Program-made: the position numbers
Shown here: positions 33,793-35,633 of the stretch, piece by piece
How the letters are laid out: each line of letters starts with the position of its first letter
How positions within the stretch are numbered: position 1 is the stretch's first letter
Origin: Octopus sinensis
Lineage: Eukaryota
NCBI RefSeq assembly: GCF_006345805.1
Contig: NC_043000.1
Coordinates: 76,694,001-76,758,000 of the forward strand
Reading direction: 5' to 3'
Length of the DNA stretch: 64,000 bases

Positions 33793-35563
33793 AACAAAGA
33801 TCAAAGTGGATGACAGATTTTCGTAGATCAAGTTCCTTTATCATTGGAATACAGAATACATAAAAATTTATCGAGTTGTTAGGTTTTAAGCGCTTCAATA
33901 TTACGATTAAAAGGGAAGCAGTATTACAAAACCTTACGATCGTTTCAAGTAATGCGTTTGTATTGGGCGAGTTTTCCAGCCGATACAAATTGTCGCATTT
34001 CTCCCATCAGGGGTACAAATAAATCGATTAAAATAGTTGAAAAAATCGAGAAAGCTTAAAATATCTCCTACTTACAAAACTTGAAGTCACATCGAGTAAT
34101 CTTACATTTGTTTTTAAAATGTTGTAGTATTTTAAAAAAACTATTAACCTTCTATATGTAAGTTGTAATTTAACGATCATTGTAAATTGTAAATCAAAAA
34201 TATCATGTGAATTTTTAAACTGTTCCCACTAACATTCTGCATATATGGATTCACCTTACTTTAATTATTTACTATCTTTAATTATCAGCAACCCAACTGT
34301 CTTATATGGTTAACCAGGTTTAACCCGAAGCTTGAGTCCTCATTTTATTTTATTTTATTTTTACAAAAATTTTAAATTTCATTTTCATTCGCACAAATGT
34401 TTTACTTCACAACTTTTTCCACTTCAGAAAGTCTTTCTATATCCTTGCGAAATCTTTTAAAAACACTATAACATTTAAAAAAATATATATATCATTACTC
34501 GATATGACTTCAAGTTCTGTAAGTAGGACATATTCTAAGCTTTCTCGATTTTTCAACTATTTTAATTGTACTTCTGATGAGAGAAATCCGACTGGAAAAT
34601 TCATCCAATACAAAAGCATTCCTCGAAACGATCGTAAGGTTTTGTAATACTGCTTTTCTTTGGATTGTAATATTAGAGCGCTTGAAATCTAACATCTCAA
34701 TGAAATTTTTATGTATTCTGTATTCCAATGATAAAGGAACTTGACTTACAAAAATCTGTCATCCACTTATATATATATATAACAATGATAAATATCAAAG
34801 TGAGTTATATACAGTAGCGGTAACACATCGTGACGTATTTTTGCCATTTCAATATGGCTAACCTCTAAGGGTGGATGCTACTGTAGTTTTTAGCCCCAGG
34901 AGGACACACTCCTCCAGCTGGCCATAGACACACTATCTGTGTCCTGTCAGTATTTGCAAAGGGAAGTCATCCTTCCCGTCTTCAACTTATGATACACACG
35001 GACTCGAGTTTCGAGGTATTGACCTCTCGTCAGCGTGTGACAATCATAGTTGTCGCCGAGAATTAGATTTCCTTCACAAATACTTATACTTTTTCCAGCG
35101 TCCACTGTCGCTGATATTGAAAAAGTGAAATCAAACAATGATAAATATCAAAGTGAGTTATATACAGTAGCGGTAGGGGTTAGCCATATTGAAATGGCAA
35201 AAATACGTCACGATGTGTTACCGCTACTGTATATAACTCACTTTGATATTTATCATTGTTTGATTTCACTTTTTCAATATCAGCGACAGTGGACGCTGGA
35301 AAAAGTATAAGTATTTGTGAAGGAAATCTAATTCTCGGCGACAACTATGATTGTCACACGCTGACGAGAGGTCAATACCTCGAAACTCGAGTCCGTGTGT
35401 ATCATAAGTTGAAGACGGGAAGGATGACTTCCCTTTGCAAATACTGACAGGACACAGATAGTGTGTCTATGGCCAGCTGGAGGAGTGTGTCCTCCTGGGG
35501 CTAAAAACTACAGTAGCATCCACCCTTAGAGGTTAGCCATATTGAAATGGCAAAAATACGTCA

Positions 35564-35633
<70 letters not shown>

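What the first reader, a model, noticed from the sequence alone, without database searches (positions are those of the whole stretch)
34781..35567. 353-nt retrozyme-like unit: two identical more-than-monomer copies inserted head-to-head, each with a perfect hammerhead
Seen: each arm is about 390-395 nt, made of one 353-nt unit plus about 40 nt of terminal redundancy. The two arms start at different points of the unit. Neither end coincides with the predicted GUC cleavage site (ends lie about 174 and 220 nt past it). No meaningful ORF is present. Established: metazoan non-LTR retrozymes are short non-coding repeats with type I hammerheads that yield circular RNAs and are thought to be mobilised by Penelope-like RTs. 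Inference: these copies were reverse-transcribed from a 353-nt circle (or multimer), going slightly more than once round. The apparent arm identity suggests a young, possibly active family. I am not aware of a description in this lineage but cannot search.
Basis: partly seen in the sequence, partly recalled or inferred. Interest (0 to 1): 0.92.

Follow-up and report, generated by a model that had tools for sequence, protein, structure and literature searches.

The report
Head-to-head hammerhead retroelement in octopus
A young, non-coding 353-base mobile element with a self-cleaving hammerhead RNA motif sits as two back-to-back copies inside a TA repeat of an octopus-like genome, in the layout typical of Penelope-like retrotransposons; it is a new example of a known kind of element.

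Summary
Positions 34781-35175 (395 nt) and 35174-35567 (394 nt) are two inverted copies of a 353-nt unit, each with 42 or 41 nt of terminal redundancy. They differ at one base and are offset by 46 nt. Each carries a complete type I hammerhead: Rfam RF00163 scores 32.2 bits, just under the 34-bit cut-off. The host is an octopod.

This is a non-autonomous, hammerhead-bearing retroelement of the metazoan non-LTR retrozyme kind. Its insertion layout matches what is published for Penelope-like elements (PLEs):
- a partial tandem;
- an adjacent inverted copy;
- an AT-rich or (TA)n target;
- two internal start sites for reverse transcription.

Both 3' ends abut the split (TA)n run, and the 5' ends meet at a TA. 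This fits priming from both cut target strands.

The start points are not arbitrary. Four of five family arms in the window end at unit position about 171-175. An old copy (11159-11553, with a 10-12-bp target duplication) shares both ends with the right arm. All three full-length copies are 393-395 nt.

The template crossed the hammerhead cleavage site, so it was a ligated circle or an uncleaved multimer. Which one remains open. Each arm has only one ribozyme, so this locus cannot itself release a unit-length RNA.

Verdict: a new member of a known kind, of moderate interest.

The parts
34768..34780 (.). left remnant of the (TA)n target run
   Evidence: the run 34768-34781 ends where the left arm begins
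34781..35175 (-). left arm: 395 nt = one 353-nt unit plus 42 nt. The hammerhead-sense strand is '-'. 5' end at s179 (35175), 3' end at s220 (34781).
34995..35039 (-). type I hammerhead of the left arm
   Evidence: RF00163, 32.2 bits, model 1-45 of 45
35174..35177 (.). arm junction: TA (35174-35175) is shared by both arms; the only arm mismatch is at 35177
35174..35567 (+). right arm: 394 nt = one unit plus 41 nt. Sense strand is '+'. 5' end at s134, 3' end at s174.
35355..35399 (+). type I hammerhead of the right arm; predicted cut after GUC at 35393|35394
   Evidence: alignment shown
35568..35613 (.). right remnant of the (TA)n target run, followed by (GT)n
11159..11553 (-). old single copy of the same family (74.7% identity), 393-395 nt with about 37-41 nt of terminal redundancy. 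Flanked by the direct repeat GGAATAATATTA (11147-11158 and 11552-11563), of which 10-12 nt is target duplication. The hammerhead has decayed.
12016..12333 (.). related family: head-to-head pair of 5'-truncated copies (144-nt arms, 90% complementary, 30 nt between). Homologous to s~23-171, with outer ends at s~171-175. No hammerhead part.
1414..2674 (-). fragment of a Penelope-like element (RT piece 2378-2674, GIY-YIG 1414-1800). It shows that this machinery exists in the genome. It has no sequence similarity to the unit.

Best explanation
This is a recent insertion of a non-autonomous, non-coding retroelement of the metazoan 'non-LTR retrozyme' kind in an octopod genome, very probably put in place by the RT-endonuclease of a Penelope-like element (PLE).

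Shown by the sequence:
- Two copies of a 353-nt unit lie with their hammerhead-sense 5' ends together and their 3' ends against the two halves of a split (TA)n run.
- Each copy is 394-395 nt, contiguous across the hammerhead cleavage site.
- The two 3' ends lie at s174 and s220, 46 nt apart.

Inferred:
1. Both strands of the target were cut, and each 3'-OH primed reverse transcription at a defined internal site of the element RNA.
2. Each cDNA ran once round a periodic template (a ligated 353-nt circle or an uncleaved multimer) plus about 41 nt.
3. The two cDNA 3' ends paired at a TA, and each was filled in on the other, giving the near-perfect palindrome.

The conserved part of the unit (the hammerhead plus s~20-170, just upstream of the main start site) is the likely recognition module for the RT.

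The hammerhead has a two-base-pair helix III capped by the palindromic loop UCGA. In master tandem copies elsewhere it would cut multimeric transcripts to 353-nt monomers, probably by pairing as a dimer.

This locus has one ribozyme per arm. It is therefore a dead-end copy. A read-through transcript would fold into a hairpin of about 349 bp.
For: Anatomy: (arm lengths, offset of 46, one mismatch, s coordinates).

Hammerhead:
- the full RF00163 model is matched, E 7.5e-6 and 5.6e-7.
- two hammerhead segments cofold into the dimeric form at -33.9 kcal/mol, against -14.5 for one alone.
- the old copy keeps helix I through A-U to G-C and C-G to U-G changes, and keeps the helix III loop palindromic (UCGA to UGCA).

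RNA structure: the 353-nt circle folds at -112.7 kcal/mol, against -81.6 +/- 5.3 for 200 dinucleotide shuffles (z = -5.85).

Non-coding: the longest open frame is 66 aa.

Family in the window:
- 3 loci and 5 arms, with no further locus found by nhmmer.
- 3' ends lie at s~171-175 in 4 of 5 arms.
- 3 of 3 full-length arms are 393-395 nt.
- 2 of 3 loci are head-to-head.
- The old copy has a 10-12-bp AT-rich target duplication.

Conservation is highest at s314-5 (0.83), s21-65 (0.87-0.90) and s126-170 (0.87-0.90). It is lowest at s224-313 (0.50-0.67).

Not a fold-back of the locus: the flanks mirror each other only within the TA run (13 of 14 bases), falling to 36% over 100 nt.

Host and machinery:
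- The best named relatives of a window-encoded retrotransposon pol are Octopus sinensis proteins at 80-91% identity.
- PLE GIY-YIG and RT fragments lie in the window.

Published parallels, all read in the named passages or sections:
- PLE insertions form partial tandems, often with an adjacent inverted copy and a 30-40-bp 'tail'. Several clades prefer (TA)n. Naiad PLEs occur in Octopus spp. (PMC8557442).
- A purified PLE protein cuts and extends both target strands. It prefers AT-rich DNA and starts reverse transcription at two adjacent internal RNA sites not homologous to the target. Ribozyme cleavage is not needed for insertion (PMC11167929).
- Metazoan retrozymes are 170-400 nt, low in GC, structured and co-resident with PLEs. 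Mussel units are 350-390 bp (PMC7229834).
- Vertebrate retrozymes group with PLE pLTRs, and solo monomers are common (preprint 10.64898/2026.07.22.740005).
Against: - The hammerhead scores 1.8 bits below Rfam's curated cut-off. It is absent from both whole-window scans.
- The old copy's hammerhead is not detected at E<=10.
- No PLE in the window shares sequence with the unit, so no partner is identified.
- Only 5 arms at 3 loci could be examined. No eukaryotic genome, read set or RNA data was available, so the palindrome itself is not confirmed by reads.
- Random insertion would land in a (TA)>=5 run about 3% of the time (66 runs, 3.06% of the window). One event in (TA)n is weak evidence. The old copy is in AT-rich DNA, not a microsatellite.
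- The two start sites are 46 nt apart, against 30-40 bp for the published tail.
- The published inverted PLE copy is usually 5'-truncated, whereas here both arms are full length.
- Ends shared between the old copy and the right arm are also what a linear, terminally redundant element would show.
- The tandem arrangement with two or more ribozymes that defines an active retrozyme is not present at this locus.
Confidence: 0.66

Rival explanations
1. The element and machinery are the same, but the template was a linear, uncleaved multimeric transcript of a tandem array, or a terminally redundant linear RNA using R-like strand transfer. It was not a covalently closed circle.
For: In vitro, a PLE uses unprocessed RNA as the dominant substrate, and ribozyme mutants do not change insertion (PMC11167929). 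The old copy and the right arm share both ends within about 3 nt, as a linear element would.
Against: On a long multimer, 5' ends should scatter. Instead, 3 of 3 full-length arms stop 41-42 nt past one turn, whichever start site was used (s174 or s220). The left arm's ends do not fit a linear RNA bounded at s134 and s174. No tandem array of the unit is in the window.
Confidence: 0.3
2. Assembly artefact: a chimeric fold-back read or a mis-join created the palindrome from a single insertion.
For: PLE-type tandem and inverted structures are noted to cause assembly problems (PMC8557442). Perfect 349-nt arms are what a fold-back read would give. No reads could be checked.
Against: The arms are offset by 46 nt and each is longer than one unit. 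The outer 46 nt of the left arm is not the mirror of what follows the right arm. The flanks mirror only in the TA run (36% over 100 nt). A second head-to-head pair of the related family lies at 12016-12333.
Confidence: 0.07
3. DNA-level rearrangement: an inversion or replication fold-back within a short tandem satellite array of the 353-nt unit, with no reverse transcription at this site.
For: Retrozyme units are known as satellite-like tandem arrays. Palindromes can arise by template switching at replication forks.
Against: My own reasoning from the coordinates: inverting the left half of a 2.2-mer array in place would put s133 at the outer end and s92 at the junction, whereas s220 and s179 are observed. 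Both outer ends abut one split (TA)n run. The right arm's ends coincide with those of an independent old insertion that has a target duplication.
Confidence: 0.06
4. A DNA transposon of the foldback or MITE type that targets TA.
For: Long inverted arms and TA-rich flanks.
Against: The two termini are not inverted repeats of each other, because the symmetry is offset by 46 nt. The old copy is a single arm with direct terminal redundancy and a 10-12-bp duplication. A hammerhead and 353-nt periodicity are not features of such elements.
Confidence: 0.03

Closest known systems
Metazoan non-LTR retrozymes (Cervera and de la Pena 2020, PMC7229834; sections 13-15 and 17 read)
   Same: A small (170-400 nt) non-coding unit with GC below 50%. 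It has a type I hammerhead, a strongly self-paired predicted circle and target duplications longer than 4 bp, and it co-resides with PLEs. Mussel units are 350-390 bp. Helix III has two base pairs under a tetraloop, as described for invertebrate and HHR_Amex2 motifs.
   Different: Published retrozymes are defined by tandem repeats with a ribozyme in each unit. Here each copy is a 1.12-mer with one ribozyme, and the two copies are inverted. No RNA evidence is available here. I found no cephalopod description in 4 text searches.
Insertion architecture of Penelope-like elements (Craig et al. 2021, PMC8557442, passages; Frangieh et al. 2024, PMC11167929, main text)
   Same: A partial tandem (pLTR-like redundancy), an adjacent inverted copy, an AT-rich or (TA)n target, two internal RT start sites a few tens of nt apart, extension from both target strands, and an associated hammerhead.
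   Different: There is no RT or EN ORF, so the element is non-autonomous. The redundancy is only 41-42 nt. The start sites are 46 nt apart rather than 30-40. Both inverted copies are full length. No PLE with a matching end was found in the window.
Vertebrate retrozymes as PLE derivatives (Li, Clavereau and Pollet 2026 preprint, 10.64898/2026.07.22.740005; abstract, discussion and passages read)
   Same: [quoted passage not shown] Dispersed solo 'monomers' are common offspring.
   Different: That work rests on phylogeny and co-distribution in vertebrates. It says invertebrates were not examined. In the passages I saw it does not describe inverted pairs or end mapping.
Newt and axolotl satellite hammerheads (as summarised in PMC7229834, section 15)
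   Same: A type I hammerhead with a weak helix III and a palindromic loop that can work as a dimer. Units are 330-353 nt.
   Different: Those are vertebrate elements in very long arrays, and there is no sequence relationship. Here dimer formation is only predicted.
Twin priming of LINE-1 (recalled from general knowledge, not from a call)
   Same: Both ends of a broken target prime cDNA synthesis, giving an inverted junction with microhomology.
   Different: L1 twin priming yields one inverted, truncated element from one linear RNA with poly(A). Here two more-than-unit copies come from a periodic template and carry no poly(A).

Membership tests
Metazoan non-LTR retrozyme | Type I hammerhead with an intact catalytic core | tested here: met
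   RF00163 matched over 1-45 of 45, with CUGANGA, GAAA and GUC present, E 5.6e-7. Caveat: 32.2 bits is below the gathering score of 34.
Metazoan non-LTR retrozyme | Short non-coding unit (about 150-450 bp) with GC below 50% | tested here: met
   The unit is 353 nt with 149 G+C (42%). The longest open frame is 66 aa.
Metazoan non-LTR retrozyme | Tandem repeats with a hammerhead in each unit, so that a monomer can be excised | tested here: not met
   Each arm is a 1.12-mer with one hammerhead, and the window holds no tandem array. By the preprint's scheme this is a solo 'monomer' derivative. Arrays elsewhere in the genome could not be searched.
Metazoan non-LTR retrozyme | Expressed as linear and circular RNA of unit length | not testable with these tools
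   No transcriptome access. Only a predicted stable circular fold (z = -5.85).
Metazoan non-LTR retrozyme | Target site duplications longer than 4 bp, when present | tested here: met
   The old copy has a 10-12-bp direct repeat at 11147-11158 and 11552-11563. In the young locus any duplication is hidden in (TA)n.
Metazoan non-LTR retrozyme | Co-existence with PLEs in the genome | tested here: met
   GIY-YIG (Pfam E 6.1e-7) and an RT fragment at 1414-2674 (-). Naiads are reported in Octopus spp..
PLE-mediated insertion (non-autonomous) | Partial tandem, giving direct terminal redundancy | tested here: met
   42, 41 and about 37-41 nt in 3 of 3 full-length arms.
PLE-mediated insertion (non-autonomous) | Inverted copy adjacent at the 5' end | tested here: met
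   2 of 3 family loci are head-to-head.
PLE-mediated insertion (non-autonomous) | Two internal RT start sites, or a 30-40-bp tail | tested here: inconclusive
   3' ends lie at s~171-175 (4 arms) and s220 (1 arm), 46 nt apart. Five arms are too few, and the spacing is somewhat larger than published.
PLE-mediated insertion (non-autonomous) | AT-rich or (TA)n target | tested here: met
   The young locus splits a (TA)n run. The old copy's duplication is AT-rich with two ATT words. The chance level for (TA)n is about 3%.
PLE-mediated insertion (non-autonomous) | Sequence shared with an autonomous PLE (pLTR or 3' region) | tested here: not met
   No similarity to the PLE fragments within this window. 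The rest of the genome was not searchable.
Plant LTR retrozyme | LTRs with type III hammerheads, PBS, PPT and 4-bp TSD | tested here: not met
   The hammerhead is type I, and a 41-nt redundancy stands in place of LTRs. The defining list comes from PMC7229834, section 13. PBS and PPT were not searched for.

The most novel reading that the evidence does not exclude
The constant overshoot of 41-42 nt past one full turn appears in three independent cDNAs, whichever of the two start sites was used. The two arms are also of equal length. Together these may be the genomic footprint of target-primed reverse transcription on a covalently closed 353-nt circRNA by a dimeric PLE complex priming from both target strands. 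On this reading, synthesis stalls after limited displacement of its own cDNA start. If so, copy-end mapping alone would separate circle-templated from multimer-templated mobilisation. It would also tie invertebrate retrozymes mechanistically to PLEs. A corollary is that head-to-head insertions create long hairpin RNA genes that could feed small-RNA silencing of the family.
Probability: 0.25. Interest if true: 0.7.

Novelty: new member of a known kind. Interest (0 to 1): 0.5.

Why it matters
Who mobilises animal retrozymes, and from which RNA form, is still argued from co-occurrence and phylogeny. A very young insertion that shows its start points, its end points and its junction gives direct structural evidence for PLE-type priming from both target strands. 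It also sets up a simple test, mapping copy ends across the genome, for circle versus multimer templates. It extends the retrozyme kind to an octopod, whose genomes are rich in PLEs and microsatellites. It also flags 349-bp perfect palindromes as possible sources of hairpin RNA and of local fragility.

Tried and rejected
- Rfam microRNA rows. Families MIR7533, MIR8562, MIR6217 and mir-297 scored high over 35062-35332 and over the microsatellites. All were far below their gathering scores. I read them as generic matches of hairpin models to the palindrome and to simple repeats, not as microRNA genes.
- Whole-window Rfam scans found no hammerhead (0 rows; 117 rows, none a hammerhead). Only scans of short stretches did.
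- Old copy. No hammerhead hit at E<=10.
- Second hammerhead-like pair at 22873-23077. It was found by a word search but has no Rfam hammerhead hit at E<=1, so I do not call it a ribozyme.
- The word match at 40371-40395 lies inside a retrotransposon ORF and was dropped as chance.
- nhmmer with a profile of 4 arms (right arm, old copy and the two arms of 12016-12333) returned 8 rows. Six belong to the three known loci. Two, at E 0.4, are antisense self-noise. No further copies were found.
- Pfam found nothing for 7 of 10 ORFs submitted, including the Naiad-like ORFs at 28498-31133. That label rests on my reading of motif words only.
- In-place inversion of a tandem array and a simple snap-back of one cDNA were both worked through by hand against the coordinates. 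Both were rejected because the predicted end positions differ from those observed.

Not done:
- No search of a eukaryotic genome, reads or transcriptomes, because none was on hand.
- Genome contigs holds only bacteria and archaea and was not scanned.
Those of PMC7229834 (lists of invertebrate retrozymes) and PMC8557442 (Octopus PLE families) may bear on lineage novelty and on the partner element.

Papers:
- PMC11167929: main text read.
- PMC7229834: sections 13, 14, 15 and 17 read.
- PMC8557442, PMC13282606 and PMC6962438: passages only.
- Preprint 10.64898/2026.07.22.740005: abstract, discussion and passages.
- 'Not described in cephalopods' rests on searches only.
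Full report
**What is there**

The stretch 34781-35567 is 787 nt. It consists of two inverted copies of a 353-nt unit.
- The left arm (34781-35175, 395 nt) repeats its first 42 nt at its end.
- The right arm (35174-35567, 394 nt) repeats its first 41 nt at its end.
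- When both arms are mapped on the circularised unit, the left arm starts at offset 0 with no mismatch.
- The reverse complement of the right arm starts at offset 46 with one mismatch, at 35177, two bases from the junction.

I number the unit from the predicted ribozyme cut, with s1 the base after GUC. On that scale the hammerhead occupies s315 to s6. The right arm runs from s134 (5') to s174 (3'), and the left arm from s179 (5') to s220 (3'). The sense 5' ends meet at a shared TA (35174-35175). The sense 3' ends abut (TA)7 on the left and (AT)24 on the right, that is, one split microsatellite.

The flanks are mirror images only inside the TA run: 13 of 14 bases match, falling to 36% over 100 nt. 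The window has no N and 36.6% GC.

**The ribozyme**

Rfam's type I hammerhead model (RF00163) is matched end to end on both arms at 32.2 bits. The E-value is 7.5e-6 in a 1151-nt scan and 5.6e-7 in an 86-nt scan. The curated cut-off is 34 bits. Accordingly, the gathering scan of the window returned nothing, and the permissive whole-window scan listed 117 rows without a hammerhead.

The alignment shows:
- helix I, CACACG/CGUGUG;
- the core words CUGACGA and GAAA;
- a 5-bp helix II with loop CAAU;
- the cleavage triplet GUC.

Helix III is A-U and C-G under the palindromic tetraloop UCGA. [quoted passage not shown] Two copies of the 45-nt motif cofold into the dimeric hammerhead with an 8-bp intermolecular helix III. 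The energy is -33.9 kcal/mol, against -14.5 for a single motif. In the MFE fold, helix I extends through an internal loop for about 17 bp.

**The unit as an RNA**

The 353-nt circle is predicted to fold at -112.7 kcal/mol. Two hundred dinucleotide shuffles give -81.6 +/- 5.3, so z = -5.85, and 62% of bases are paired. No frame longer than 66 aa is open on either strand of a tandem of the unit.

**Relatives in the window**

blastn and nhmmer find two further loci and no more.

(i) An old single copy at 11159-11553, with sense on the minus strand.
- It is 74.7% identical to the right arm (292 of 391 aligned ungapped positions; JC distance 0.31).
- It is 393-395 nt long and has its own terminal redundancy.
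- It is flanked by the direct repeat GGAATAATATTA (11147-11158 and 11552-11563). Of this, 10-12 nt is target duplication, because GG is ambiguous with the element end.
- Its 5' end (s131-133) and 3' end (s171-174) coincide with those of the right arm (s134, s174) within about 3 nt.
- Its hammerhead keeps helix I through one double change (A-U to G-C) and one wobble change (C-G to U-G).
- It keeps the helix III loop palindromic (UCGA to UGCA).
- It has lost the G-C pair that closes helix II, and Rfam does not detect it at E<=10.

(ii) A head-to-head pair at 12016-12333.
- The arms are 144 nt, 90% complementary, with 30 nt between them.
- The pair is homologous to s~23-171 of the unit.
- Both arms are 5'-truncated before the hammerhead.
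- Both have outer (3') ends at s~171-175.

Totals for the window:
- 4 of 5 arms end at s~171-175, and 1 of 5 at s220.
- 3 of 3 full-length arms are 393-395 nt.
- 2 of 3 loci are head-to-head.

Between the young and old copies, conservation is highest over the hammerhead (0.83), s21-65 (0.87-0.90) and s126-170 (0.87-0.90). It is lowest over s224-313 (0.50-0.67). The conserved half is the half shared with the 12016 family, and it ends at the main 3' end site.

**Host and resident machinery**

A retrotransposon pol ORF in the window (40557-42185) has Octopus sinensis proteins at 80-91% identity as its best named relatives. Argonauta hians follows at 56-59%. The window therefore comes from an octopod, probably Octopus or a close relative. 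That rests on one mobile-element protein.

The window also holds a PLE fragment. A GIY-YIG domain lies at 1414-1800 (-) (Pfam E 6.1e-7), preceded by a C-x4-C-x2-C word that I read directly. An RT piece lies at 2378-2674 (-). ORFs at 28498-31133 have an EN-RT-EN order that I read as Naiad-like from motif words only, since Pfam found nothing. None of these shares sequence with the unit.

**How it most likely arose**

Shown by the sequence:
- Both 3' ends face the target.
- Each arm is contiguous across the ribozyme cut site and longer than one unit.
- The ends are not at the cut site.

It follows that the template was not a ribozyme-cleaved linear monomer. It was either a ligated circle or an uncleaved multimer.

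Inferred, by comparison with published work:
- A purified PLE protein cuts AT-rich DNA and extends both strands.
- It starts reverse transcription internally, at two adjacent sites of its RNA that are not homologous to the target.
- It does not need ribozyme cleavage for insertion (PMC11167929, main text).
- PLE insertions are typically partial tandems with an adjacent inverted copy and a 30-40-bp tail. Several clades favour (TA)n. Naiads occur in Octopus (PMC8557442, passages).

The locus is a miniature of that architecture. I therefore propose the following sequence of events:
1. Both strands of the (TA)n run were cut.
2. One 3'-OH primed at s174 and the other at s220.
3. Each cDNA ran one turn plus 41-42 nt.
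4. The two cDNA 3' ends paired at TA.
5. Each cDNA was completed on the other.

The single mismatch sits at the extreme 3' end of the right-hand cDNA. There, a copying error or a junction base is plausible.

**Circle or multimer**

This is not settled.
- For a circle: the overshoot is the same (42, 41 and about 41 nt) for both start sites and in an independent old insertion. One rule would explain this: synthesis stalls after displacing about 40 nt of its own start. A multimer template should instead give scattered 5' ends.
- For a linear form: two independent insertions share both ends, and PLE insertion in vitro prefers unprocessed RNA.

With three full-length copies I leave this open, at roughly even odds with a lean to the circle.

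**Consequences for this locus**

Each arm has a single hammerhead, and the two lie on opposite strands. A transcript can therefore be cut once at most, and no unit-length RNA can be released. The arms' identity dates the insertion as recent, but the active sources must be tandem copies elsewhere.

A read-through transcript would form a perfect hairpin of about 349 bp. That structure is what the spurious microRNA-family hits reflect. Whether it is processed into small RNAs is untested.

**Rivals considered**

- Assembly fold-back. The 46-nt offset, the arms longer than one unit and the non-mirrored flanks argue against it. No reads were available.
- In-place inversion of a tandem array. It predicts s133 and s92 at the ends instead of s220 and s179. 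This is my reasoning on the coordinates.
- A TA-targeting foldback or MITE element. The termini are not inverted repeats of each other, and the old copy is a single arm with a 10-12-bp duplication.

**Comparison with what is known**

Functionally and structurally this is a metazoan non-LTR retrozyme unit (PMC7229834). It meets the criteria of size, GC, type I hammerhead, structured RNA, long target duplication and co-resident PLEs.

It fails one defining feature at this locus, the tandem arrangement with a ribozyme in every unit. By the scheme of the 2026 preprint (10.64898/2026.07.22.740005) it is therefore a solo or monomer-class derivative. That preprint argues from vertebrate phylogeny that retrozymes derive from PLE pLTRs. 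It states that invertebrates were not examined.

**Lineage novelty**

I ran four text searches:
- 'hammerhead ribozyme' + octopus;
- retrozyme + cephalopod;
- hammerhead + ribozyme + cephalopod;
- Penelope-like + octopus + transposable.

They turned up no description of retrozymes in cephalopods. They found a count of 235 Rfam hammerhead-1 hits in the giant squid genome paper (PMC6962438, passage). They also found a repeat annotation of O. vulgaris that lists Penelope-like elements but never mentions hammerheads or retrozymes (PMC13282606, term search). Supplements were closed and may hold more.

**Verdict**

This is a new member of a known kind.

The added value is the insertion anatomy: priming at both target ends, defined start sites and a constant overshoot. 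That anatomy links an invertebrate retrozyme to PLE-type integration and gives a cheap genome-wide test of the template's form. Interest is 0.5.

Unchecked:
- any genome-wide, read-level or RNA evidence;
- the closed collections metagenome contigs and viral contigs;
- supplementary files.

Noticed in passing
window 22873-22968 / 22982-23077: Inverted repeat with 96-nt arms, 93% complementary and 13 nt apart, lying between (CA)n and (TA)n runs. Each arm carries CUGAAGA ... CGAAAC words and a possible GAUAA/UUAUC helix I. Rfam gives no hammerhead hit at E<=1. It may be an atypical PLE-type hammerhead pair, or simply a hairpin repeat.
   Followed up: partly
window 12016-12333: Head-to-head pair of 5'-truncated copies of a family sharing s~23-171 with the 353-nt unit. 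The outer ends lie at the same site as the main 3' end of the unit.
   Followed up: yes
window 1414-3102: PLE remains: an RT piece and a GIY-YIG domain on the minus strand, with a C-x4-C-x2-C word upstream of the GIY-YIG. A separate GIY-YIG-like ORF lies on the plus strand at 2746-3102, facing them.
   Followed up: partly
window 28498-31133: ORFs in the order GIY-YIG-like, RT-like (with an RDD word), GIY-YIG-like on the plus strand. This looks like a partial tandem of an N-terminal-endonuclease (Naiad-like) PLE. There are no Pfam hits, so the label rests on motif words only.
   Followed up: partly
window 39528-42185: LTR-retrotransposon gag-pol remains with RNase H-like and integrase domains. 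The closest named proteins are from Octopus sinensis at 80-91% identity.
   Followed up: partly
window 23225-23290 / 23440-23500: Inverted arms of about 60 nt enclosing an (ATAC)n/(TA)n microsatellite. Rfam mir-5014 scores on both strands, far below its cut-off.
   Followed up: no
window, throughout: Very high microsatellite load. There are 66 runs of (TA)>=5 covering 3.06% of the window, plus long (CA)n, (ATAC)n and (CTAT)n tracts. Mariner-like, LINE-like and tRNA-SINE-like pieces were seen in the ORF list and in the sequence, for example 16908-17321 (-), 45506-48400 (+) and 11620-11790.
   Followed up: no
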